DNA of 54,024 nt from Patescibacteria group bacterium (lineage in GTDB: Bacteria > Patescibacteriota > Patescibacteriia > Patescibacteriales > UBA12465). Positions within the stretch are counted from its first letter, which is position 1; every line of letters begins with the position of its first letter. Made by a program: the position numbers and the translations under genes. This document shows, piece after piece, positions 2,443 to 54,024 of the stretch. Below the pieces are notes generated by a model. The model ran no database searches, was not told the origin of the DNA, and saw nothing but the letters and a program-made list of their open reading frames with translations. Where the stretch lies: positions 1-54,024 of the forward strand of contig JBMOHE010000005.1 in assembly GCA_049318005.1 (NCBI GenBank). The letters run 5' to 3'.

Positions 2443-2943
2443 ATGAAACAGAAAACTGTTTTAAGTGAACATCGCAAAGGTGAAATTGCCTTGGCGATGC
2501 TGATTGAAGATGTTAGAGGGAGACAAACAACTCTCAAAAGAACTGATATCTTAAAAAATATCGGGGTTGTTAGCAAAGACTTGGAACCTTTTGGAATAAC
2601 CAAGGATGAGGTTATTACTATGTACCGCGACATCATCGCAATCGTTCTCGGTGATATTTTTGGCCAACAAGTTTCTTGGTCAAGGCTTGAAGCCATGGTT
2701 CACCAAAAATCTTTGAGCCAAGCTAGAAGATGTGAAATCGCTCTCTGCTTTGGAAAGGCAGATATTAAAAACAAAACTCTTTCTCTGAACAAAAATGAGG
2801 TTATGCGAAAAATGGGCAATGTCGTTCAGGCATTAAAACCCTACGACATCCATGAGGAAGAAATTATGGCCTTATACCAAGAAGTCGTAACCGAAGCTCT
2901 GGAAAACATTTTTGAACAAAAAATTACTTGGGAAACTAAGTAA
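2443..2943 (+). CDS. Hypothetical protein with two tandem ~80-aa homologous domains
   Basis: QKTVLSEHRKGEIAL...IFGQQVSW aligns with QKSLSQARRCEIAL...IFEQKITW. Confidence 0.8.
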   Translation: MKQKTVLSEHRKGEIALAMLIEDVRGRQTTLKRTDILKNIGVVSKDLEPFGITKDEVITMYRDIIAIVLGDIFGQQVSWSRLEAMVHQKSLSQARRCEIALCFGKADIKNKTLSLNKNEVMRKMGNVVQALKPYDIHEEEIMALYQEVVTEALENIFEQKITWETK

Positions 2944-2951
2944 AATTTCAT

Positions 2952-3053
2952 GATCAACGACCAAGGTAGAACTCTAGTAGTTCTCTAAAAGGGTAATTGC
3001 TACTCCCGGCTAACGGCTTGTAGCAGGATAAGAACCTCTCCTTGTTGGGGATC
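2952..3053 (+). ncRNA. Candidate structured 3'-UTR RNA of unknown class
   Basis: Nested complementary segments: gatc/gatc, caagg/ccttg, agaact/agttct, tgctac/gtagca with inner ccg-GCTAA-cgg. Confidence 0.3.
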
Positions 3054-3083
3054 AAAAGGGGCCTTCATTGAAGACCCCTTTTT
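3054..3083. terminator. Bidirectional terminator between the 166-aa gene and trpS
   Basis: AAAAGGGG...CCCCTTTTT. Confidence 0.8.
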
Positions 3084-20398: not shown

Positions 20399-20472
20399 GG
20401 GCATATAGCTCAGTTGGTTAGAGCACCGCTCTTATAAAGCGGGGGTCGATGGTTCAAGTCCATCTATGCCCA
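20399..20472 (+). tRNA. tRNA-Ile(UAU), no encoded CCA
   Basis: Acceptor GGGCATA/TATGCCC-A; anticodon arm CCGCT-CTTATAA-AGCGG; TTCAAGT loop. Confidence 0.92.
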
Positions 20473-20485
20473 CAATAAAATAAAG

Positions 20486-31485: not shown

Positions 31486-31557
31486 GCGCCCGTAGTTCAG
31501 CGGATAGAACGGGAGCCTTCTAAGCTCTAGACGAGGGTTCGACTCCCCCCGGGCGTA
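31486..31557 (+). tRNA. tRNA-Arg(UCU), no encoded CCA
   Basis: Acceptor GCGCCCG/CGGGCGT-A; anticodon arm GGAGC-CTTCTAA-GCTCT. Confidence 0.92.
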
Positions 31558-31580
31558 CGTTTCACAGAAACACATATCAT

Positions 31581-44532: not shown

Positions 44533-46110
44533 ATGGTTGAAGCAATAAAAGACTTATTAGACAATTATTCTAAAAATATAAAAAATCGTGATAATTTAGA
44601 AATGATTAAGCGTTTAATTTGTAAAAAATATAAATTAGATGCTATTTTAAATGCCGATATTTTAAAAGAATATCGCAATTTATTAGAATCAAAAAAAATT
44701 AAACCTATTGAGGCGATTGAAAAGATATTAAGAAAAAGAAGCATAAGAACGATGTCTGGGATCGCTCCGGTTGCAGTTTTAACTAAATCATATCCTTGTC
44801 CAGGGACTTGTGCTTATTGTCCTCATGAGTCAGACGTGCCAGTTAGTTATTTATCAAATGAGCCGGCAGTTATGAGAGCAATTCGCTGTAAATACGATCC
44901 TTATGTACAGGTAGCCCATCGCTTAAGAGCTTTAGTTAACAATGGTCATGAACCAACCAAGATTGAGTTAATAGTTATTGGTGGGACCTGGAGTTATTTA
45001 CCCACTAAATATAAATATTGGTATATTTTAAACTGTTTTAAGGCGGCTAATGATTTTCAAAACAAAACTATAAATTTAAAAGATAAGTATAAAAAGAATT
45101 TAAACCTCGATAAATTAAAGGAATTATTAAAACTGGAACAGAAAAAAAATGAAAAAGCAAAATATAATTTAATCGGCATAACCCTTGAAACTCGACCCGA
45201 TTATATAAATACTGAAGAGTTATTAGAAATGCGAGACCTGGGTTGTACGAGAGTTGAGATTGGCGTCCAGGCTATTGATGATAAAATTTTAACCCTAAAT
45301 AAACGAGGTCACGGGGTTAAAGAAATTGCCGAAGCAACAAAACTCTTAAAACAGCTTGGCTTTAAAGTTACTTATCATTTGATGCCCGCTCTACCGGGCG
45401 CAACTCCAAAGAAAGATTTAGCTCTGTTTAAGCAATTATTTACAGATGAAAGATTCCAGCCAGATCAAATTAAGTTTTATCCAACAGTAGTAACTAAAGG
45501 TAGTTTATTATATAAGTGGTATAGGCAGGGAAAGTATAAGCCATATTCAGATAAAGTTTTACAAGAATTAATTGTTGAATGCAAGGCAGCTGTCCCGACT
45601 TATGTGAGAATAATTCGTTTAATTCGTGATATTCCAGGAGAGTCAATTATTGCTGGCAACAAAATTACTAATCTTAGGCAGGTTATGAAAGATAGGGGGG
45701 TTAAGTGTAGCTGTATTCGTTGTCGCGAAGCTAAAGATCAGCCAGTAAAAGATTATGACTTAAATATTGTGGAGTATCCTAGTTCTGGCGGAACAGAGTA
45801 CTTTATTAGCGCAGATAGCAAGGACGGTAAAACCTTGTTTGGTTTTTGCCGTCTAAGATTTGATAAGAGTAGTTTGGTTGCCCCTGCAATAATAAGAGAG
45901 CTCCATGTTTATGGAGAATTAGTCGCTGTGGGTTCTAAAAAAATGGTTCAGCACAGCGGACTGGGCACCAAATTGATAGAGGCGGCTGAAAAGTTAGCCA
46001 AGGCCGCAGAACTCAATAAGATTGCGGTTATTTCTGGGGTTGGGGTTAGGTCATATTATAAGAAATTTGGATATAAGCTCTATAGAACTTACATGGAGAA
46101 GCACTTGTAA
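44533..46110 (+). CDS. elp3: Elp3 tRNA U34 acetyltransferase (radical SAM plus KAT domain)
   Basis: SGIAPVAV, CPGTCAYCP (CX3CX2C), ETRPD, TRVEIGVQ, RELHVYG, QHSGLG. Confidence 0.93.
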   Translation: MVEAIKDLLDNYSKNIKNRDNLEMIKRLICKKYKLDAILNADILKEYRNLLESKKIKPIEAIEKILRKRSIRTMSGIAPVAVLTKSYPCPGTCAYCPHESDVPVSYLSNEPAVMRAIRCKYDPYVQVAHRLRALVNNGHEPTKIELIVIGGTWSYLPTKYKYWYILNCFKAANDFQNKTINLKDKYKKNLNLDKLKELLKLEQKKNEKAKYNLIGITLETRPDYINTEELLEMRDLGCTRVEIGVQAIDDKILTLNKRGHGVKEIAEATKLLKQLGFKVTYHLMPALPGATPKKDLALFKQLFTDERFQPDQIKFYPTVVTKGSLLYKWYRQGKYKPYSDKVLQELIVECKAAVPTYVRIIRLIRDIPGESIIAGNKITNLRQVMKDRGVKCSCIRCREAKDQPVKDYDLNIVEYPSSGGTEYFISADSKDGKTLFGFCRLRFDKSSLVAPAIIRELHVYGELVAVGSKKMVQHSGLGTKLIEAAEKLAKAAELNKIAVISGVGVRSYYKKFGYKLYRTYMEKHL

Positions 46111-46235
46111 TTTTGGCTAATATTAGTAATTGAAGTTATTATTATTGACAAAAATAGATAATTAGTTTATTATTATAGGGCTAAATTTAAAAGTAAAAAA
46201 ATAAATTTGTAGTATCATTAAAAATAAGTAGAGAA

Positions 46236-46964
46236 ATGCTAAAAGAAGTGCCAGAAGTAAAAGTAAGAATAATCCCCAAAGAATTTTTCTTGGGGATTGA
46301 AGTTTTAGAAAGAAACGGTTTAAGCTTGAAAAATTTTCGTCGTTTAACTAAAAGTGGTGGTGATGACAAGGCAAAAAGAATTATTGAGATTCTCAACGAG
46401 CCAGTATCTAAATACCATCAACTTATTAAAGAGTGGGAAGAGTTCTATTTAAAGTATTTCAATATTAAAATTGATTTAAAGAAAATAGAGATACCAGCGC
46501 CGCCAAAACAAGAAAAACGATTATTGATTATTGTCCCGGCTTTATCGGTCGACAGGGTGATTAAATCAAAGCGTAAGCATTATAGTGTTGTGATGGCGCT
46601 TTCTGGACCCCCGGCTAAGTTAAGTAACGAAATTACTCATCACGCGCCTTATGCTGCGTGGGTAGCTGAAAGTATTAACCCGCATAGAAAAATGCGAGGA
46701 ACATCCGCTCTTTGGGCAAAGGAAAATAATGTTTCCGGAGAAACTCTTTTAGAAAGATTGTTGCACGATTTCAAGTATTGGGATGAAACAGGAAAACACT
46801 TGGATCATAATTATCTAACAATTTGTTCATCTTCAAGATTCGCAAATGGATTTGTGCCTCTTGTTGCTTTTGATCAAGATAATATCGAAGGGATAATTAT
46901 TACACAGTGCGAGGAGAATAAAAAACATCCTCACCTTGGACACCGTCAAGTATTTCGTCTATAA
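46236..46964 (+). CDS. Hypothetical protein
   Basis: 242-aa ORF with a TTGACA-N17-TATTAT promoter (46145-46173) and a terminator at 46989-47013. Confidence 0.75.
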   Translation: MLKEVPEVKVRIIPKEFFLGIEVLERNGLSLKNFRRLTKSGGDDKAKRIIEILNEPVSKYHQLIKEWEEFYLKYFNIKIDLKKIEIPAPPKQEKRLLIIVPALSVDRVIKSKRKHYSVVMALSGPPAKLSNEITHHAPYAAWVAESINPHRKMRGTSALWAKENNVSGETLLERLLHDFKYWDETGKHLDHNYLTICSSSRFANGFVPLVAFDQDNIEGIIITQCEENKKHPHLGHRQVFRL

Positions 46965-47028
46965 TCAGAAAAAATTGCTTTAGTCAGCGCCCGTTCAGAA
47001 ATGAGCGGGTTTTAAATATCCAAAAAAT

Positions 47029-47058
47029 TTGATTTTTTAAGTTAATATGTGCTATAAT
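47029..47058 (+). promoter_or_regulatory. Promoter TTGATT-N18-TATAAT with extended TG; predicted +1 near 47065
   Basis: tg-c-tataat at 47050-47058. Confidence 0.7.
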
Positions 47059-47064
47059 TAATGT

Positions 47065-47127
47065 ATGTTAATGACTAAAAATATCACAACTTGGTCTGGC
47101 TTTAAAGTATTAAGCACTCTAGTTTAA
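47065..47127 (+). CDS. Putative leaderless leader peptide MLMTKNITTWSGFKVLSTLV
   Basis: ATG coincides with the predicted +1; stop codon lies in the loop of hairpin 1:2. Confidence 0.45.
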   Translation: MLMTKNITTWSGFKVLSTLV

Positions 47128-47177
47128 TCTCAGAGGGCTATTTTTTGTATGAATGGCGCCCTCTGGGGCGTTTTTTT
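47113..47177 (+). promoter_or_regulatory. Attenuator with alternative hairpins 1:2, 2:3 (antiterminator) and 3:4 (terminator)
   Basis: AGCACTCT/AGAGGGCT; CAGAGGGC/GCCCTCTG; CGCCC-TCTG-GGGCG-T7. Confidence 0.7.
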
Positions 47178-47196
47178 ATTTACTAAATCTAAGCTC

Positions 47197-47883
47197 ATGA
47201 ATAAAGAAAATATAAATTTTAGAATTCTGGTTGCATTAGCGCTCTACTTAATATCGTTATTAGCAGCTAATACTTTAGGGTTAAAGTTGATGCCATTTAT
47301 TTTTGGGACACATTTATCGGTTGCCGTATTTTTCTTTCCGTTTGTATATTTAACAACTGATGTCATCGGGCAAGTCTATGGGAAACAGATGGCGAAAAAT
47401 TTTGTTTGGGTGGGGCTGATAAGCATGGTTTTATTTATGCTTTATACGGTAATTTCACTTGCCCTACCTTGGTCTAAAGAAAGTTTAAGTCTTAAGGCGG
47501 GCTATACTTCGGTCTTTGGGATATCGTTAAGAATGTCGATCGCCTCCTTGTTCGCTTATTTTATCGCTGAATATCAAGACGTTATCGCTTTTTTCTTTTT
47601 TAAGAATAAACTTAAAAATAAAAGTTTTTGGCTCCTTTCAAATCTTTCTAATCTCTGGTCACAATTTTTAGATACACTCGTCTTTATGATTATAGCCTTC
47701 GCGGGAATCTATTCATTCAAAACTATTATCTTTATTAGTTTGCCTTGGTGGATATATAAGGTAATAATGGGATTCTTATACACCCCTTTTTCTTATTGGG
47801 GAATTAATTTATTAAAATATGAAAATAAAAGCAATAAAAACAGCGATCTTTCAACCGAAACAGAATCTTTATGTATTCATTGA
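47197..47883 (+). CDS. yhhQ: YhhQ/QPTR (VUT family) transporter, usually annotated as queuosine precursor transporter
   Basis: FFPFVYLTTDVIGQVYG, ASLFAYFIAEYQD, SNLWSQFLDT; start moved to ATG 47197. Confidence 0.88.
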   Translation: MNKENINFRILVALALYLISLLAANTLGLKLMPFIFGTHLSVAVFFFPFVYLTTDVIGQVYGKQMAKNFVWVGLISMVLFMLYTVISLALPWSKESLSLKAGYTSVFGISLRMSIASLFAYFIAEYQDVIAFFFFKNKLKNKSFWLLSNLSNLWSQFLDTLVFMIIAFAGIYSFKTIIFISLPWWIYKVIMGFLYTPFSYWGINLLKYENKSNKNSDLSTETESLCIH

Positions 47884-48517
47884 AAAATATTTGCCTATCA
47901 TAAAAGAGAATATGATTTTGGTGGTGACTTCAAAGATTGTTGCCTTGGCCGAAGGTAGGGTGGAAAAAAATATAAATGAAAATTCAAAGATGGAAATAAT
48001 AAAAAAAGAAAGTGAATTTGTTTTTCCAACTAAATATGTTTGTTTAACTATTAAAGATGGAATCGTTATGGCGAATGCTGGGGTTGATGAAAGCAATGCT
48101 AACGGAGACATTATTCTTTTGCCTCGGAACAGTTTCTTGGCCGCTTCTAAAATAAGAAATCATTTTAAGAAAAAATTCAATTTAAAAAATTTAGGGGTTA
48201 TTGTTACTGATAGTCGATGTTTGCCGTTGCGGTCAGGAATCACCGGAGTTGCTTTAGGTTATGCCGGCTTTCAAGGACTAAAAGATTATCGAAAAAAACT
48301 AGATATCTTTGGTCGCCCGTTTCATTATTCTCGGGTTGATGTGGCTGATAGTTTAGCAACGGCCGCTGTTTATTGCATGGGCGAAGGGGATGAAAAACAA
48401 CCATTAGCGATAATTGGTAATTCGGGAGTAACTTTTTGCGAAAGAACAAATAAAAATGAATTAAAAATTGACATAAAGGAGGATATTTACGGGCCATTAT
48501 TTAAGGAGATTTTGTAA
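47819..48517 (+). CDS. CofE-like (F420-0:gamma-glutamyl ligase family) protein, possibly FolC2-type
   Basis: VVTSKIVALAEG, ANAGVDESN, GVIVTDS, G.ALG.AG, DIFGRP, D.ADSLATAA...MGEGDE..P. Confidence 0.85.
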   Translation: MKIKAIKTAIFQPKQNLYVFIEKYLPIIKENMILVVTSKIVALAEGRVEKNINENSKMEIIKKESEFVFPTKYVCLTIKDGIVMANAGVDESNANGDIILLPRNSFLAASKIRNHFKKKFNLKNLGVIVTDSRCLPLRSGITGVALGYAGFQGLKDYRKKLDIFGRPFHYSRVDVADSLATAAVYCMGEGDEKQPLAIIGNSGVTFCERTNKNELKIDIKEDIYGPLFKEIL

Positions 48518-48526
48518 AAATTAATT

Positions 48527-48555
48527 TTGACAAAAGACCCTCTCTAAATTAAGAT
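48527..48555 (+). promoter_or_regulatory. glyA promoter TTGACA-N17-TAAGAT; transcript probably leaderless
   Basis: -10 ends at 48555 and the ATG is at 48563. Confidence 0.6.
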
Positions 48556-48562
48556 TAAAGAT

Positions 48563-49807
48563 ATGAAATACAATCATTTGCAACAACAAGACCCTGCCGT
48601 TTGGGACATAATCGAGAAAGAGGAAAAACGACAAAATGAAGAACTGGAGCTAATTGCTTCAGAAAATTATGTTAGCCCGGCTGTTCTAGAGGCGATGGCG
48701 ACAGTTTTGACTAATAAATATAGCGAAGGCTATAGTGGTCGTCGTTATTATGGTGGTAATTATAATATTGATGATATTGAAAATTTAGCGATTGAACGCG
48801 TTAAAAAGCTTTTTGATGCCGAGCATGTAAACGTTCAGCCTTTGTCGGGCTCTCCTGCAAACGCGGCTGTTTACATGGCTTTTTTAAGTCCGGGCGATAA
48901 AGTTCTTGGCTTGAAACTTGATCACGGCGGTCATTTATCTCACGGGCATAGTGTTAATTTTTCTGGTCGCCTATATAACTTTGTTCAATATGGAGTTAAC
49001 ACGGAAACTGGAATTATTGATATGGACGAAGTTAGAGAAATTGCTTTAAGAGAAAAACCAAAAATGATAGTGGCTGGTTTCTCGGCTTATTCAAGAGAAA
49101 TTGATTGGCAAAAATTTAAAGATATCGCTGACGAGATTGGTGCTTATACTTTTGCCGATATCGCTCATATCGCTGGATTAATTGCCGCTAAACAGTTAAA
49201 AAATCCGGTGCCAATTTTTGATGTTGTTTCAACTACTACCCATAAAACTTTACGTGGCCCCCGAGGAGCGATAATCATGTGTAAAGAAAAATATGCGAAG
49301 CAAATAAATAGTGCAGTATTTCCAGGTATGCAAGGCGGCCCGCATGATCACATTACTGCCGCTAAAGCAGTTGCTTTTGGCGAAGCGCTGAAACCAGAAT
49401 TTATTGAATATGGAAAACAAATAATTTTAAACGCTAAAGCAATGGCAGAAGAATTTATTAATCGTGGTTATAAAATTGTTTCGGGTGGAACGGATAATCA
49501 TCTTATGGTTCTTGATTTGGGTAATAAAAATTTAGTTGGCAAAGAAGCTGAAAAGGTTTTGGAGAAAATTGGTATTTCTGTTTCTCGCTCAACCATACCA
49601 AATGATCCTAATCCGCCGATGAATCCATCTGGAATTAGAATCGGAACACCGGCCGTAACCACTCGTGGTTTGAAAGAATTAGAAATGAAACTAGTGGTTG
49701 AATATATTGACGAGGCATTTATGAATAAGGAAGATGAAAATAAACTTAGTGAGTTAAAACAAAAAGTTGAAGAACTTTGTGAAAAGTTTCCAGTTCCAAC
49801 AAAATAA
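48563..49807 (+). CDS. glyA: Serine hydroxymethyltransferase
   Basis: LIASENY, NKYSEGY, GGHLSHG, TTTHKTLRGPRG (PLP lysine). Confidence 0.98.
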   Translation: MKYNHLQQQDPAVWDIIEKEEKRQNEELELIASENYVSPAVLEAMATVLTNKYSEGYSGRRYYGGNYNIDDIENLAIERVKKLFDAEHVNVQPLSGSPANAAVYMAFLSPGDKVLGLKLDHGGHLSHGHSVNFSGRLYNFVQYGVNTETGIIDMDEVREIALREKPKMIVAGFSAYSREIDWQKFKDIADEIGAYTFADIAHIAGLIAAKQLKNPVPIFDVVSTTTHKTLRGPRGAIIMCKEKYAKQINSAVFPGMQGGPHDHITAAKAVAFGEALKPEFIEYGKQIILNAKAMAEEFINRGYKIVSGGTDNHLMVLDLGNKNLVGKEAEKVLEKIGISVSRSTIPNDPNPPMNPSGIRIGTPAVTTRGLKELEMKLVVEYIDEAFMNKEDENKLSELKQKVEELCEKFPVPTK

Positions 49808-49813
49808 AAACAT

Positions 49814-50605
49814 ATGGTTAAAATAATTAATGGACAAGCAATCGCCGAAAGAGTTAAAGATGAGGTGGCGCAAGAAATATTTGAGTGGAAGGGGCCAAGG
49901 CCAAGTCTTGCCATTGTTTTGGTTGGGGAACGTGAAGATTCTAAACTTTATGTTTCTTTAAAGCAAAAAGAAGCTGTAAAAGTTGGTGTTGATACTCATT
50001 TATATGAACTTGAAGAAAAAACTTCTGAGGAAGAGGTGTTAAGTGTTATTGATTTTCTAAATAAAGATGAATCAATTGATGGGATTTTAGTTCAGCTACC
50101 TTTGCCAGCACATATTGATGCCGATAAAATTATTGCGGCCATGTATCCAAATAAAGATGTTGATGGTTTTCATCCGGAACACCCCGATTATATTACTTCT
50201 CCTGTTTTGGCTGCAATTATTGCTTGTTTAGATGAAATAAAATTTGATTATCGCGGAAAGACTGCGTGTGTTTTTTATAATTCAGAAATTTTTGGTTTAA
50301 GCGTTAAAGAAATTTTAGAATCAAGAGATGTAGAAATTTTGCCTTTAGAAAAATCTGATGAGGCTGATATTTTAATTAGTGCCCTAGGCTTACCGCTGTC
50401 GGTTAAAAAAGAAGTTATTAAGAACGGCGCAGTTTTAATTGATATTGGAACAACTAAAGTTGATGGAAAAGTAATAGGCGATATTGATTTTGAAGACGTA
50501 AAAGATAAAGCAGAATATATTACTCCGGTTCCAGGCGGGATTGGCCCAATGACAATTGCCTTTTTATTCAAGAATGTTTTAGAGATATTTAAGAGACGGT
50601 ATTAA
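49814..50605 (+). CDS. folD: Methylene-THF dehydrogenase/cyclohydrolase FolD
   Basis: IINGQAIA, GILVQLPLP, KDVDGFH, DIG, ITPVPGGIGPMT. Confidence 0.95.
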   Translation: MVKIINGQAIAERVKDEVAQEIFEWKGPRPSLAIVLVGEREDSKLYVSLKQKEAVKVGVDTHLYELEEKTSEEEVLSVIDFLNKDESIDGILVQLPLPAHIDADKIIAAMYPNKDVDGFHPEHPDYITSPVLAAIIACLDEIKFDYRGKTACVFYNSEIFGLSVKEILESRDVEILPLEKSDEADILISALGLPLSVKKEVIKNGAVLIDIGTTKVDGKVIGDIDFEDVKDKAEYITPVPGGIGPMTIAFLFKNVLEIFKRRY

Positions 50606-50624
50606 ACAGTTTTATTCTATTTAA

Positions 50625-52409
50625 ATGATACAGAGACAGAAAGAGCAATTAAAAGAACTCCTTAAGATTCATTTTGGTTATGAGTCTTTTAGGCCGGGAC
50701 AAGAAACGGCAATTGATAATATTTTACATCATAAAAATACGGTGGTTGTTTTACCAACCGGAGGCGGTAAGTCACTAATCTACCAACTACCAGCCTTAAT
50801 TTTAGAGGGGATAACAATTGTTGTTTCACCTTTAATTGCCTTAATGAAAGATCAGGTTGATTCTCTAGAAAAAGTCGGCATTCCAGCAACTTTTATTAAC
50901 TCCTCAATTACCCCCGCGGAAACAGAAAAAAGATTGGCGAGAGTAAAAAGTGGTTATTATAAAATTGTTTATATTGCGCCTGAGCGTTTTTATAATCAAG
51001 TTTTTTTGGCCGAGCTTAGAAACATTAAAGTTTCTTTATTTGCGATTGATGAAGCTCACTGTATCAGCCAATGGGGTCACGATTTCCGCCCAAGTTATAT
51101 GCGCCTTAAAGACGCAATTAAATTTGTTGGCTCGCCAGTTGTAGTTGCACTAACTGCAACCGCCACACCAGAAGTTAGAGATGATATTGTTAAACAACTC
51201 GCTTTTCAAGATTCGGAATTAGTTATTACTGGTTTTGCTAGACCGAATTTGCAGTTTGCAGTCATGCCGGCGACCAATGGTCAAAAAATTGAAAGCATTG
51301 TTAATCTTTTAACTACTAATCAAGAATTAGGCTCAGGAATTATTTACGTTGGTACTAGAAATAAGGCTGATGAATTAGTTGAAGTTCTAACGGACCACGA
51401 TATTAAGGCAGTGGTATATCATGCCGGCATGGATAGTGAAAGTCGTGATTGGGTTCAGGAAAGATTTATGAAAGGCGAGGCTCAAGTAGTAGTCGCAACT
51501 AACGCTTTTGGTTTAGGAATTAATAAAAAAGATATTCGCTTTGTTGTTCACCATGACTTGCCAGGAACAATTGAAGCCTACTACCAAGAAGCTGGTCGTG
51601 CGGGCCGTGACGGTAAACCAAGTTTTTGTTTGTTATTTTATCACCAACAAGATAGATATTTAAGAGAATTTTTTATTAAAGGAGACAATCCAGACCCAAA
51701 CATGATTCTTGAAATTTATGATTTTTTGGTTCGACGAGTTGAATTAGAAGTTGATACAAACGCCTCTATATTAATTACTTATGCCGAGATTGGTCAAAAT
51801 TTATCTGATTCTGTTCCGGAGATGGCAATAGGCACGGCTTTAAAAATATTAGAAAAAGAGGGTTATATATCAAGGCCAAACGAGAAAACGTCTAATTCTT
51901 TCTTAAAAGCTAAAAAAGATTGGGCAGAAATTTTGGCGTCAATTAGTAAAAGGGCCAAGAGTCAACTAGAAGTAGTTGAAAAGTTGGGCGAAAAATACTT
52001 AGAAAAATTAACATTAGGCTGGGAGTTTAATCCCGAAGAAGTAGCCTTAGTTTTAAAAGTTAAAAAAGATTCTTTACTTCGAGCGATTAAAAAATTAGCC
52101 GAGAAAGATTTATTAGAATATAAACCACCTTTTCGTGGTACGGAAATTAAAATTCTTAAAGTTGTCGAGTCTCAAGACCTTAACTTAGACTTTAAAGCGC
52201 TTAAAGCTAAGGCTGAGCGAGCCTATGAAAAACTTAATGAGATGGAAAATTATGTTTATCATCTTGGTTGTCGACAGGAATATATTTTAAAATATTTTGG
52301 CGATTCAACTGCAAGGGCCTGCTCTCAGTGCGATAGTTGTTTGAAGGTAAATAAGGTTAAGGCTAAAGGAGGTGAAGACTATACTAAAAAAGAATATTTG
52401 AGTTATTAA
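50625..52409 (+). CDS. recQ: RecQ family ATP-dependent DNA helicase
   Basis: PTGGGKS, IDEAHCISQWGHDFRP, ATNAFGLGINK, QEAGRAGRDG; Zn-binding CR...C..CD.C. Confidence 0.93.
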   Translation: MIQRQKEQLKELLKIHFGYESFRPGQETAIDNILHHKNTVVVLPTGGGKSLIYQLPALILEGITIVVSPLIALMKDQVDSLEKVGIPATFINSSITPAETEKRLARVKSGYYKIVYIAPERFYNQVFLAELRNIKVSLFAIDEAHCISQWGHDFRPSYMRLKDAIKFVGSPVVVALTATATPEVRDDIVKQLAFQDSELVITGFARPNLQFAVMPATNGQKIESIVNLLTTNQELGSGIIYVGTRNKADELVEVLTDHDIKAVVYHAGMDSESRDWVQERFMKGEAQVVVATNAFGLGINKKDIRFVVHHDLPGTIEAYYQEAGRAGRDGKPSFCLLFYHQQDRYLREFFIKGDNPDPNMILEIYDFLVRRVELEVDTNASILITYAEIGQNLSDSVPEMAIGTALKILEKEGYISRPNEKTSNSFLKAKKDWAEILASISKRAKSQLEVVEKLGEKYLEKLTLGWEFNPEEVALVLKVKKDSLLRAIKKLAEKDLLEYKPPFRGTEIKILKVVESQDLNLDFKALKAKAERAYEKLNEMENYVYHLGCRQEYILKYFGDSTARACSQCDSCLKVNKVKAKGGEDYTKKEYLSY

Positions 52410-52427
52410 AATGTAGATTCTTTTTAT

Positions 52428-53135
52428 ATGGAAGAAAAAAAAACTCAAGAATTATTAGAGCTTGTAAAAAATAATTACCAAGAAATTGCGACGGAGTTTG
52501 ATTTGACTAGAAAAAAAGAAATTTGGCCGGAGATTAGAGAGTTTGCGGCTGAAGTAAAAGATGGTGATAATGTTTTAGATGTCGCCTGCGGCAACGGGCG
52601 CTTGATCGAGGCGCTAAAAAATAAAAAGATTAATTATTTAGGAGTTGATAATAGTTTTAATTTAATTGAATTAGCGAAAAAAAATTATCCCGATTATAAA
52701 TTTATGATTGGCGATATGTTAAATTTAGAAAAAATTGAAAATAATGAATTTGATTTTATTTTTTGCTTAGCCGCTTTACAGCATATCCCAAGCAAAGACT
52801 TAAGGGTTAAGGTTTTACGAGACATGGCCGCTAAATTAAACAGTAATGGCAAATTAATTATTAGTAATTGGAATCTCTGGAGTCATAAAAAATATAGACC
52901 GCTATTAATAAAAAGTTACTTGTTAAAATTAATAGGAAAAAATAAATTAGATTTTAATGATTTAGTTTTCCCTTCAAAATTTTATTTAGCGAGTCAAAAT
53001 AAAAGAGAGGCAAGCGATAGATATTACCACGCTCATACCAAAGCAGAATTAAAGAAAATAGCTAATTTAGCTAATTTAAAAATTTTAGAATTGAAAAAAG
53101 ATAGGTATAATCTTTGGTTGGTTTTAAAAAAATAA
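52428..53135 (+). CDS. Class I SAM methyltransferase, Trm9/ALKBH8-like
   Basis: YQEIATEFDLTR...WP, LDVACGNGR, GVDNS, LAALQHIP...R..VL, IS.W. Confidence 0.75.
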   Translation: MEEKKTQELLELVKNNYQEIATEFDLTRKKEIWPEIREFAAEVKDGDNVLDVACGNGRLIEALKNKKINYLGVDNSFNLIELAKKNYPDYKFMIGDMLNLEKIENNEFDFIFCLAALQHIPSKDLRVKVLRDMAAKLNSNGKLIISNWNLWSHKKYRPLLIKSYLLKLIGKNKLDFNDLVFPSKFYLASQNKREASDRYYHAHTKAELKKIANLANLKILELKKDRYNLWLVLKK

Positions 53136-53172: not shown

Positions 53173-54024
53173 ATGAAATACACAGGAGAAAGAATGATGC
53201 CAGAATATAACGAAGGCGAAGATATGTATTTAGAGCATTTTGCTAGATACTTTTTTGCTGCTCAGTTTGTTAAGAATAAAAATGTTCTTGATATTGCCTG
53301 TGGTAGCGGCTACGGATCACAGCATCTTTTAAATTCTGGCGCTAAAAAAATAATAGGCGTCGATATTTCCGCTGAAACAATTAACTATTGCAAAGAAAAA
53401 TACCAAGCAGACAATTTAAATTTTTTAATTGGCGATGTAAAAAGGATTCCACAAGAAAATAATTCCGTAGACATTGTTGTTTCTTTTGAAACTATTGAAC
53501 ACGTTGATAAAGATTCTCAAATTAAATTTATAGAGGAAATCAAAAGAGTTCTAACTCCTGATGGATTATTTATTGTTTCTACACCAAATTCGCTAGTTCA
53601 TCCAAAGGGTAACCATTTTCATATTCACGAGTTAGACTTTGAAGAATTTAAAAATATTCTTAATAAAAATTTTGAAAATGTTAACTTCTTTTATCAGGAT
53701 ACGGTTGAGAGTAGTTATATATATTCTGAAGAAAGATTAAGAAAAAAAATAAAGGATGATAATAAGAAGTTTAGGTTAAACGAGAAAACAAGCGAAATGT
53801 CCGCCAGAAAAAGTATGTATATAGTAGCTGTTTGTAGTGATAAAAAATTTGAAGATATAAATGAGCTTGTTTGTTTATCTGATATTAAGCCTTATCTTAA
53901 TTTGGCAAAAAAAAATGAGGAGATAAAATATTTCAATTTAGATTTGAACAAGAAGAACGAAGAAATAAGATCTCTTAACCTCAACTTGAACAAGAAGAGT
54001 GAGGAAGTAGAATCTCTTAACCTC
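53173..54024 (+). CDS. Class I SAM methyltransferase with C-terminal coiled-coil repeats (3' end truncated by window)
   Basis: Open frame from ATG 53173 to the window end: MKYTGERMMPE, EH.ARY.FA, LDIACGSGYG, FETIEH, STPN. Confidence 0.85.
   Translation, partial: MKYTGERMMPEYNEGEDMYLEHFARYFFAAQFVKNKNVLDIACGSGYGSQHLLNSGAKKIIGVDISAETINYCKEKYQADNLNFLIGDVKRIPQENNSVDIVVSFETIEHVDKDSQIKFIEEIKRVLTPDGLFIVSTPNSLVHPKGNHFHIHELDFEEFKNILNKNFENVNFFYQDTVESSYIYSEERLRKKIKDDNKKFRLNEKTSEMSARKSMYIVAVCSDKKFEDINELVCLSDIKPYLNLAKKNEEIKYFNLDLNKKNEEIRSLNLNLNKKSEEVESLNL
53902..54024 (+). repeat. 42-bp (14-aa) tandem repeats encoding a coiled coil
   Basis: Units at 53902, 53944, 53986: LAKKNEEIKYFNLD / LNKKNEEIRSLNLN / LNKKSEEVESLNL. 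Confidence 0.85.

What the first reader, a model, noticed from the sequence alone, without database searches (positions are those of the whole stretch)
44533..53135. Elp3 plus a Trm9/ALKBH8-like methyltransferase: possible eukaryote/archaea-type mcm5U34 pathway in a bacterium
Seen: full-length Elp3 (44533-46110) and, 6.3 kb downstream, a methyltransferase with Y..IA..F..TR...WP, D.ACGNG and A.LQHIP...R..VL...IS.W, the pattern I recall for Trm9/ALKBH8. Known: Elp3 makes cm5U34 and Trm9(-Trm112) methylates it to mcm5U; yeast tRNA-Arg(UCU) is a canonical substrate, and bacteria normally use MnmE/MnmG. The window also has tRNA-Arg(UCU), Ala(CGC), Val(GAC) and Ile(UAU); keeping C34 and G34 isoacceptors in an AT-rich genome fits restricted U34 wobble. 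Inference: this lineage decodes with an Elongator-type chemistry; I know of no description of this pairing in CPR, but could not search.
Basis: partly seen in the sequence, partly recalled or inferred. Interest (0 to 1): 0.8.

Follow-up and report, generated by a model that had tools for sequence, protein, structure and literature searches.

The report
Bacterial Elp3 plus Trm9-like tRNA methyltransferase
This tiny uncultured bacterium (Patescibacteria/CPR) carries both enzymes that archaea and eukaryotes use to build the mcm5 group on the wobble uridine of tRNA and lacks the usual bacterial enzymes, so it probably decodes with a 'eukaryote-type' tRNA modification that I found reported for no bacterium.

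Summary
44533-46110 is a full-length Elp3 (TIGR01211, 535.6 bits against a cut-off of 350). 52428-53135 is a 235-aa class I methyltransferase of the Trm9 family.

Evidence for Trm9 membership:
- Yarrowia Trm9 (5CM2) is its best solved relative by sequence, by profile (86.9 bits against 49.2 for the next) and by fold.
- hhalign against fungal Trm9 gives 99.9% probability.
- A fungal Trm9 profile picks it out of the whole genome (99.9 bits against 20.5).
- Seven of the eight residues essential in yeast Trm9 are kept.

Evidence for a functional link to Elp3:
- In 301 genomes of the phylum, Elp3 occurs in 118, MnmG in 11, and never both.
- The Trm9-like gene occurs almost only with Elp3 (78 of 79 genomes).
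- It usually sits head to head with Elp3, also in Dehalococcoides.

In this genus glyA-folD-recQ lies between the two genes, which stay on one strand.

The genome (98.7% complete) has MnmA but no MnmE, MnmG, TilS or Trm112. The predicted products are mcm5U34 and mcm5s2U34, made by a Trm112-independent Trm9. Nothing here is biochemical. This copy has lost one Trp that yeast Trm9 needs. The same scan has already flagged this pair in many other genomes.

The parts
44533..46110 (+). elp3: stand-alone radical-SAM/GNAT tRNA U34 carboxymethyl (cm5U) synthase, 525 aa, with a basic N-terminal extension (aa 1-67)
   Evidence: TIGR01211 gives 535.6 bits against a cut-off of 350 over model positions 7-522. 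Pfam finds Radical_SAM, Radical_SAM_C and GNAT. The best solved relatives are DmcElp3 5L7J (6e-115) and MinElp3 6IA8 (aligned from residue 22). The motifs CPGxCxYCP, KCxCIRCRE and QHxGLG align with DmcElp3.
52428..53135 (+). trm9-like gene: class I SAM-dependent methyltransferase, 235 aa, predicted cm5U34 carboxyl O-methyltransferase (cm5U to mcm5U)
   Evidence: Best PDB hit is Yarrowia Trm9 5CM2_Z: 5e-14 with the single sequence, 1.1e-23 and full length with the profile. Foldseek top hit is 5CM2_Z, E 4e-17, TM 0.86. hhalign against fungal Trm9 gives 99.9% probability, E 1.4e-32. It is the only strong hit of a fungal Trm9 HMM in the genome (99.9 against 20.5 bits). R28, D74, H119, W148, R198, Y200 and N228 correspond to the essential ScTrm9 residues R29, D72, H116, W145, R241, Y243 and N271. 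S183 replaces the W168 equivalent.
48563..52409 (+). glyA, folD and recQ: not part of the pathway, but the conserved spacer between elp3 and the trm9-like gene in this genus and order (elp3 ... glyA-folD-recQ-trm9-like, all on one strand)
   Evidence: Pfam finds SHMT, THF_DHG_CYH and DEAD/Helicase_C/RecQ_Zn_bind. The same order glyA-folD-recQ-MTase is seen in L007, L009, L012, L015, L047, L050 and L051. In the same genus, elp3 and the MTase lie 3.9-7 kb apart on one strand.
46236..48517 (+). Three extra genes inserted in this genome only or in few relatives: a hypothetical 242-aa protein, a queuosine-precursor transporter (YhhQ/Vut_1) and a CofE/folate gamma-glutamate-ligase-like protein. They are not part of the pathway.
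   Evidence: Pfam and NCBIfam assignments. The hypothetical protein is found in only 2 of 24 genomes of the same genus.
31486..31558 (+). tRNA-Arg(UCU): candidate substrate (mcm5U34 carrier in yeast). The genome has 14 U34 tRNAs in all.
Evidence: ARAGORN.
20399..20473 (+). tRNA-Ile(UAU): another U34 tRNA. It reads AUA in a genome without TilS.
   Evidence: ARAGORN. There are only two CAU tRNAs in the genome. TIGR02432 is absent.

Best explanation
The window encodes the two enzymes of an Elongator-type wobble-uridine pathway.

Step 1 (inferred from family membership): stand-alone Elp3 uses SAM and acetyl-CoA to add a carboxymethyl group to C5 of U34 in a subset of tRNAs, giving cm5U.

Step 2 (inferred from family membership, conserved active-site residues and the genomic link): the Trm9-family methyltransferase uses SAM to esterify that carboxyl group, giving mcm5U.

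Step 3 (inferred): bacterial MnmA, encoded elsewhere in the genome, adds the 2-thio group on tRNA Lys/Glu/Gln, giving mcm5s2U.

This replaces the usual bacterial MnmE/MnmG route, which the genome lacks. Unlike eukaryotic and archaeal Trm9, the enzyme would work without Trm112.

Shown here: the gene identities, the residue conservation, the absence of mnmE, mnmG, tilS and trm112, and the co-occurrence and adjacency of the two genes across the phylum. Not shown: any modified nucleoside or any enzyme activity.
For: Gene identity:
- Elp3 membership.
- Trm9 membership by sequence, profile, fold and reverse search.
- Seven of the eight residues whose mutation kills yeast Trm9 (PMC4678810) are invariant in the family and present here.

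Genomic link, in 301 genomes of the phylum:
- Elp3 is in 118 and MnmG in 11, none of which has Elp3.
- The Trm9-like gene at 90 bits or more and full length is in 79 genomes. 78 of them have Elp3, counting G276, whose Elp3 is cut by a contig end. Fisher p is about 1e-38, uncorrected for phylogeny.
- In about 70 genomes the two genes are neighbours in divergent orientation, with gaps mostly of 10-250 bp. The same holds in 56 of 79 named loci and in Dehalococcoides CP019867.
- Among the 41 genomes of the relatives search (own, same genus, same order), three lack both genes together: G304, G316 (genus) and G340 (order).

Rest of the pathway in the own genome (98.7% complete):
- No MnmG or MnmE.
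- MnmA present at 420 bits. MnmA is in 257 of 301 genomes of the phylum.
Against: - There is no biochemical or mass-spectrometric evidence for cm5U or mcm5U in any bacterium. I found none in the papers I could search, and a 2020 review says direct evidence is lacking (PMC7663514).
- This copy, and its closest relative G317, has Ser plus a 4-residue insertion where the family has the Trp equivalent to yeast W168. The W168A mutant of yeast Trm9 is inactive.
- Trm112, the obligate activator of every characterised Trm9, is missing.
- In this genome the two genes are 6.3 kb apart, not adjacent.
- 31-41 Elp3-bearing genomes lack the methyltransferase, so Elp3 can evidently work without it.
Confidence: 0.78

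Rival explanations
1. The methyltransferase is functionally tied to Elp3 but makes a different product. It might methylate another atom of the cm5/ncm5 side chain, or a neighbouring nucleotide, so the end product would not be mcm5U.
For: The bacterial family is only about 26% identical to fungal Trm9. It lacks Trm112. It has a one-residue insertion in the TR...WP motif and Gln in place of the first His of the HH pair.
Against: The residues modelled to hold the cm5U carboxylate and the uracil ring are all conserved. These are R29/R28, H116/H119, R241/R198, Y243/Y200 and N271/N228 (yeast/window). H115A, the position that is Gln here, is only mildly defective in yeast.
Confidence: 0.1
2. In this particular genome the Trm9-like gene is a weakened or inactive copy, so tRNAs stay at cm5U (or cm5s2U), even though the family as a whole is active.
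For: W183 is replaced by Ser and a 4-residue insertion follows, only in the window and in G317. 16 other members of the genus and order keep FPWK. Yeast W168A is inactive. Model confidence dips in this loop (pLDDT 67-76).
Against: The frame is intact and all other critical residues are kept. The protein is 77% identical to G317 across its whole length, with the variant loop shared, which suggests it is maintained. F185 and Y186 in the inserted stretch could supply the stacking aromatic (inference).
Confidence: 0.1
3. The methyltransferase is an unrelated small-molecule or protein methyltransferase (the UbiE/UbiG-like annotation), and its link with Elp3 is coincidental.
For: Pfam and NCBIfam give only generic class I hits, all below their cut-offs (UbiG 56 bits against 103). 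Several sources name homologues UbiE or UbiG.
Against: No quinone pathway is expected in a 1-Mb CPR genome (my own knowledge). The Trm9-specific N- and C-terminal motifs lie outside the Rossmann core and are conserved. The near-perfect co-occurrence, the divergent adjacency and the joint loss with Elp3 all argue against coincidence.
Confidence: 0.02

Closest known systems
Trm9-Trm112 of yeasts (S. cerevisiae; Yarrowia lipolytica structure 5CM2) and the ALKBH8 methyltransferase domain with TRMT112 in animals
   Same: Same fold and the same family-specific motifs outside the Rossmann core (VY..IA..F..TR..WP, HH/QH, W after beta-5, PW, RYYH, NxW). Seven of the eight essential residues are kept. 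It acts downstream of Elp3.
   Different: There is no Trm112 in the genome. Identity is about 23-26%. Gln replaces the first His. This copy lacks the W168 equivalent. There are no AlkB or RRM domains. The 2-thiolation partner is bacterial MnmA, not Ncs6/Urm1.
Archaeal Elp3 with Trm9-Trm112 (Haloferax volcanii HVO_1032; Elp3-Trm9 gene cluster in Sulfolobus solfataricus; PMC6144793)
   Same: Stand-alone Elp3 without Elp1, Elp2 or Elp4-6. The Elp3 and Trm9 genes are clustered. Elp3 has the basic N-terminal extension.
   Different: Archaeal Trm9 binds Trm112. The organism here is a bacterium with MnmA.
Dehalococcoides mccartyi Elp3 (DmcElp3, 5L7J), the reference bacterial Elp3
   Same: It is the closest solved relative of the window's Elp3 (388 bits). 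Its gene also has a divergent Trm9-like methyltransferase 43 bp upstream.
   Different: DmcElp3 lacks the N-terminal tRNA-binding extension that the window's Elp3 has. The papers I read on DmcElp3 do not mention the neighbouring methyltransferase, but the primary structure paper was not available to me.
Bacterial MnmE/MnmG (cmnm5U/mnm5U) pathway
   Same: Same position (C5 of U34), the same tRNA classes and the same partner MnmA for s2U.
   Different: Different chemistry and unrelated enzymes. It is absent from this genome and from 290 of 301 genomes sampled in the phylum.

Membership tests
Elp3 (TIGR01211) | Full-length match above the curated cut-off, with radical-SAM plus GNAT/KAT architecture | tested here: met
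   535.6 bits against 350, model positions 7-522. Pfam finds Radical_SAM, Radical_SAM_C and Acetyltransf_1.
Elp3 (TIGR01211) | Fe-S cluster cysteine triad, Zn/Cys motif and acetyl-CoA motif QxxGxG | tested here: met
   C89-x3-C93-x2-C96, KCSCIRCRE and QHSGLG align with the same motifs of DmcElp3.
Elp3 (TIGR01211) | Basic N-terminal extension needed for tight tRNA binding (present in archaea and eukaryotes, absent in DmcElp3; PMC6367351) | tested here: met
   Residues 1-67 are Lys/Arg-rich. The alignment to MinElp3 starts at residue 22 and to DmcElp3 only at residue 68.
Elp3 (TIGR01211) | cm5U34 synthase activity | not testable with these tools
   Needs enzyme assay or nucleoside mass spectrometry.
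Trm9 / ALKBH8 methyltransferase | Closest to Trm9 among solved structures, by sequence, profile and fold | tested here: met
   5CM2_Z is first in all three searches: 55.2 bits; 86.9 against 49.2 bits; Foldseek 4e-17 against 2.6e-13.
Trm9 / ALKBH8 methyltransferase | Profile-profile homology over the whole length, and a reciprocal unique hit in the genome | tested here: met
   hhalign 99.9%, E 1.4e-32, 205 columns. Fungal Trm9 HMM: 99.9 bits against 20.5 for the next ORF.
Trm9 / ALKBH8 methyltransferase | Essential residues ScTrm9 R29, D72, H116, W145, R241, Y243 and N271 | tested here: met
   They correspond to window residues R28, D74, H119, W148, R198, Y200 and N228, all invariant in 35 homologues.
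Trm9 / ALKBH8 methyltransferase | Essential residue ScTrm9 W168 (solvent-exposed Trp after the PW motif) | tested here: not met
   The window has S183 plus a 4-residue insertion. More than 90% of the family and 16 of 17 relatives in the genus and order have Trp.
Trm9 / ALKBH8 methyltransferase | Obligate Trm112 partner | tested here: not met
   The best PF03966 hit in the genome is 13.6 bits, inside a serine recombinase. Hits over the cut-off occur in only 12 of 301 genomes of the phylum, all inside frames of about 200 aa or more.
Trm9 / ALKBH8 methyltransferase | Works in the Elp3 pathway (co-occurrence or clustering with Elp3) | tested here: met
   78 of 79 genomes carrying it have Elp3. About 70 are divergent neighbours. 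The two genes are lost together in three of the 41 genus/order relatives.
Trm9 / ALKBH8 methyltransferase | Methyl esterification of cm5U34 | not testable with these tools
   Needs an enzyme assay.
MnmE/MnmG pathway | Presence of mnmG and mnmE | tested here: not met
   TIGR00136 best hit is 18 bits. The best TIGR00450 hits are the two GTPase domains of a Der-like protein, below the cut-off.

The most novel reading that the evidence does not exclude
A large part of the Patescibacteria, and Dehalococcoides, may make mcm5U34 and mcm5s2U34, modifications regarded as eukaryotic and archaeal. They would use a self-sufficient three-enzyme set: stand-alone Elp3, a Trm9 that needs no Trm112, and bacterial MnmA. 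This set would have replaced MnmE/MnmG. More than half of the phylum would carry s2U34 with no known C5 pathway at all.
Probability: 0.6. Interest if true: 0.7.

Novelty: new variant of a known kind. Interest (0 to 1): 0.6.

Why it matters
Wobble-uridine chemistry is treated as a domain marker: MnmE/MnmG in bacteria, Elongator/Trm9 in archaea and eukaryotes. A conserved Elp3/Trm9-like pair across a major bacterial radiation, combined with bacterial MnmA and without Trm112, would blur that line.

It would also offer a minimal model for the Elongator pathway that can be expressed in E. coli, including a Trm9 that is active on its own. It bears on where the pathway originated and whether it was transferred between domains.

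It can be tested directly. Dehalococcoides mccartyi is cultivable and carries the same pair, and a 2020 review states that evidence for xcm5U in bacteria is still lacking (PMC7663514).

Tried and rejected
1. The 242-aa hypothetical gene just downstream of elp3 (46236-46964) as a third pathway member, for example the unknown ncm5U amidase. Rejected: no family hit, and it is found in only 2 of 24 genomes of the same genus.

2. A Trm112 partner. PF03966 in the own genome gives only a 13.6-bit hit, inside a serine recombinase. All small CxxC...CxxC ORFs are ribosomal proteins or DnaJ-like. ORFs lying between the pair in genomes with larger gaps are an HD-domain protein, a GNAT, a transposase-like ORF and unknowns, none of them shared. 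A 64-aa zinc-ribbon ORF downstream of the methyltransferase in G009 was seen once and not pursued.

3. The genome has 40 tRNAs, with G34, U34 and C34 in several boxes. From my own knowledge this is also usual in MnmEG-bearing bacteria, so it does not discriminate.

4. Other U34 methyltransferases. The three other class I methyltransferases found with the profiles are far below the CmoA, CmoB and MnmM cut-offs.

5. The search of protein representatives gave 704 clusters at E <= 1e-30. No tree was built for lack of archaeal sequences and suitable outgroups.

6. Literature. No paper combines Elp3 with CPR or Patescibacteria terms on this subject, and none describes a bacterial Trm9. The DmcElp3 structure paper (PMC5018218) is not held.
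Full report
**1. What is in the window**

All ORFs from 44533 to the end of the window lie on the + strand.

| Coordinates | Length | Identity |
|---|---|---|
| 44533-46110 | 525 aa | Elp3 |
| 46236-46964 | 242 aa | no family match |
| 47149-47883 | | queuosine-precursor transporter (Vut_1/YhhQ) |
| 47819-48517 | | CofE/folate gamma-glutamate-ligase-like |
| 48563-49807 | | glyA |
| 49814-50605 | | folD |
| 50625-52409 | | recQ |
| 52428-53135 | 235 aa | class I methyltransferase |
| 53173 to window end | | second, generic methyltransferase, cut by the contig end |

ARAGORN finds tRNA-Ala(CGC), Ile(UAU), Val(GAC), Arg(UCU) and His(GUG). The window is a whole contig (C5) of a 1.05-Mb, 26-contig genome rated 98.7% complete. 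Related records are named Falkowbacteria, Parcubacteria and Patescibacteria group.

**2. Elp3**

- The protein matches NCBIfam TIGR01211 at 535.6 bits (cut-off 350) over model positions 7-522.
- Its best solved relatives are Dehalococcoides mccartyi Elp3 (5L7J, 388 bits), Methanocaldococcus infernus Elp3 (340 bits, aligned from residue 22) and eukaryotic Elp3 (288-315 bits).
- The Fe-S cysteines (CPGTCAYCP), the KCSCIRCRE motif and the acetyl-CoA motif QHSGLG align with those of DmcElp3.
- Unlike DmcElp3, it has a 67-residue basic N-terminal extension. In MinElp3 this part is needed for tight tRNA binding and for tRNA-induced acetyl-CoA hydrolysis (PMC6367351).

**3. The methyltransferase is a Trm9 relative**

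Pfam and NCBIfam give only generic class I hits, all below their cut-offs. More specific tests all point to Trm9:

- Against all PDB sequences the best hit is Yarrowia lipolytica Trm9 (5CM2 chain Z), E 5e-14, including a second matched stretch over the C-terminal RYYH...NxW region.
- A profile of 35 homologues (A1) raises this to 86.9 bits, E 1.1e-23, over the full length. The next methyltransferase scores 49.2 bits.
- The AlphaFold model (pLDDT 90.2) has 5CM2_Z as its top Foldseek hit: E 4e-17 and TM 0.86 on the target, against 2.6e-13 for the next.
- hhalign of A1 against 20 named fungal Trm9 proteins gives 99.9% probability, E 1.4e-32, over 205 columns.
- In reverse, the fungal Trm9 HMM searched against every ORF of this genome finds this protein at 99.9 bits and nothing else above 20.5 bits.
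- One homologue carries the JGI name 'alkB family protein 8'.

**4. Active-site residues**

Létoquart et al. (PMC4678810) found eight ScTrm9 alanine mutants that abolish function: R29, D72, H116, W145, W168, R241, Y243 and N271. Using the HMMER alignments to 5CM2, seven of them map to window residues R28, D74, H119, W148, R198, Y200 and N228. All seven are invariant in the 35-sequence family alignment.

The eighth, W168, corresponds to a Trp kept in more than 90% of the family. In the window protein and its closest relative (G317) it is Ser, followed by a four-residue insertion (FPSKFYLA instead of FPWK). Sixteen other members of the genus and order keep the Trp. This is a real caveat for this particular copy.

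**5. Link to Elp3 across genomes**

In an even sample of 301 genomes of the phylum:

- Elp3 is over the cut-off in 118.
- MnmG is in 11, none of which has a true Elp3.
- MnmA is in 257.
- Full-length hits of the A1 profile at 90 bits or more occur in 79 genomes. Of these, 77 have Elp3 and one more (G276) has an Elp3 cut by a contig end. Only G069 has none. Fisher p is about 1e-38, not corrected for phylogeny.
- In about 70 genomes the two genes are direct neighbours in divergent orientation, with gaps mostly of 10-250 bp.

Among 79 named loci from the species-representative genome collection, 56 show Elp3 immediately upstream and divergent. They span Kuenen-, Portnoy-, Peregrini-, Gracili-, Kerfeld-, Uhr-, Buchanan-, Komeili-, Berkel- and Magasanikbacteria among others.

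Taking the DmcElp3 sequence, I found its gene in Dehalococcoides CP019867. A 223-aa methyltransferase lies 43 bp upstream, divergent, and matches fungal Trm9 at 99.2% probability.

**6. The arrangement in this genus**

The closest relatives do not have the divergent pair. They have glyA-folD-recQ-methyltransferase, as in the window.

I ran both searches over 41 genomes: the window's own, 24 more of its genus and 16 of its order.
- Elp3 is present in 37-38 and the methyltransferase in 36.
- Where both lie on the same contig they are on the same strand, 3.9-7 kb apart within the genus.
- One genome of the order (G336) still has the divergent adjacency.
- Three genomes (G304, G316, G340; 93-96% complete) lack both genes.

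The 6.3-kb spacing in the window is the genus pattern plus three extra genes, one of which is present in only 2 of 24 congeners. Simple promoter and terminator scans do not resolve the operon structure.

**7. The rest of the pathway in this genome**

- MnmG and MnmE are absent.
- MnmA is present at C11:10868-11992 (420 bits, cut-off 284). It is the only small PP-loop protein.
- TilS is absent.
- Trm112 is absent. The only PF03966 signal (13.6 bits) is a zinc ribbon inside a serine recombinase, and the small CxxC ORFs are ribosomal proteins or DnaJ-like.
- In the phylum sample, Trm112p hits over the cut-off occur in 12 of 301 genomes, always inside frames of about 200 aa or more.
- Three other class I methyltransferases in the genome do not reach the CmoA, CmoB or MnmM cut-offs.
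- The genome has 40 tRNAs, 14 of them with U34, including Lys UUU, Glu UUC, Gln UUG, Arg UCU and Gly UCC.

**8. Interpretation**

The best reading is a hybrid wobble pathway. Elp3 makes cm5U34, the Trm9-like enzyme makes mcm5U34, and MnmA adds s2 on Lys/Glu/Gln tRNAs. This stands in place of MnmE/MnmG, and the Trm9 works without Trm112.

The gene identities, the residue conservation and the genomic coupling are shown here. The chemistry is inferred.

Elp3 also occurs without the methyltransferase in 31-41 sampled genomes, for example a whole family of 0.7-0.8 Mb genomes (f28). Those lineages would stop at cm5U or use another enzyme.

**9. Novelty**

- Reviews describe bacterial Elp3 as confined to Dehalococcoides or 'some clades' (PMC7663514, PMC6367351). 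A 2026 paper says 'numerous bacteria' (PMC13315578).
- Archaeal Trm9-Trm112 and an Elp3-Trm9 cluster in Sulfolobus are known (PMC6144793).
- I found no paper on a bacterial Trm9, or on Elp3 in CPR bacteria.
- Within this scan, however, the same pair has been reported for well over a hundred other genomes. I read those notes only after reaching the reading above. They agree with it, but they are not independent evidence.
- Specific to this window: the separated, same-strand arrangement; the loss of the W168-equivalent Trp; and the combination with tRNA-Ile(UAU) and no TilS.

Noticed in passing
window 20399-20473; whole genome G000: tRNA-Ile(UAU) is present, only two CAU tRNAs exist in the genome, and TilS is absent (TIGR02432 best hit 16 bits, on MnmA). 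AUA is therefore read by a U34 tRNA that must avoid AUG. Whether Elp3 touches this tRNA is unknown.
   Followed up: partly
phylum sample: About 57% of the 301 sampled genomes have neither Elp3 nor MnmG, while MnmA is in 257 of 301. Most of the phylum would carry s2U34 with no known C5 pathway.
   Followed up: no
G017, G045, G070, G094, G157, G174, G191, G222, G237, G252, G266, G280, G294 (family f28) and others: A whole family of 0.7-0.8 Mb genomes has Elp3 but no Trm9-like gene. Several of them have weak Trm112p-domain hits inside frames of about 314 aa.
   Followed up: no
G147:C4, G217:C9, G185:C2, G199:C1, G035:C34, G060:C9, G275:C27: In these genomes Elp3 matches in two pieces within a single open frame of 560-740 aa. 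This suggests in-frame insertions (intein or nuclease-like) in elp3.
   Followed up: no
window 53173-54024: A second class I methyltransferase directly follows the Trm9-like gene. Its C-terminal part has repeats (LNLNKKNEEI...), and it is cut by the contig end. It is generic and not Trm9-like (20.5 bits).
   Followed up: partly
G000 C7:14819-14891 and whole genome: tRNA-Arg has anticodon GCG, not ACG, and a UCG species is also present. ARAGORN finds no tRNA-Asn in the 26 contigs.
   Followed up: no
G096:C207 and G118:C50: In the few MnmG-bearing genomes, a weak Elp3-like radical-SAM hit (63-66 bits) lies next to mnmG. It is probably MnmL/YtqA, not Elp3.
   Followed up: no
L051, L070, L038: Records labelled Planctomycetota, Pirellulales and Pacearchaeota carry the CPR-type methyltransferase. 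L051 also has the glyA-folD-recQ synteny at 50-79% identity to the window's proteins, and L070 and L038 have Elp3 upstream. These are probably mislabelled or misbinned contigs. Many 'Gammaproteobacteria' and 'Saccharibacteria' TPA labels look equally unreliable.
   Followed up: partly
window 47149-50605: The YhhQ-type transporter, CofE-like ligase, glyA and folD sit between the two tRNA genes. glyA-folD-recQ is conserved upstream of the methyltransferase in the genus; the transporter and the ligase are not in the shorter (about 4 kb) versions.
   Followed up: partly
L091 (G009:C8) 2872-3066: A 64-aa zinc-ribbon ORF (CPCC...CHRC) lies just downstream of the Trm9-like gene in one genome. It was not tested for any relation to Trm112.
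   Followed up: no
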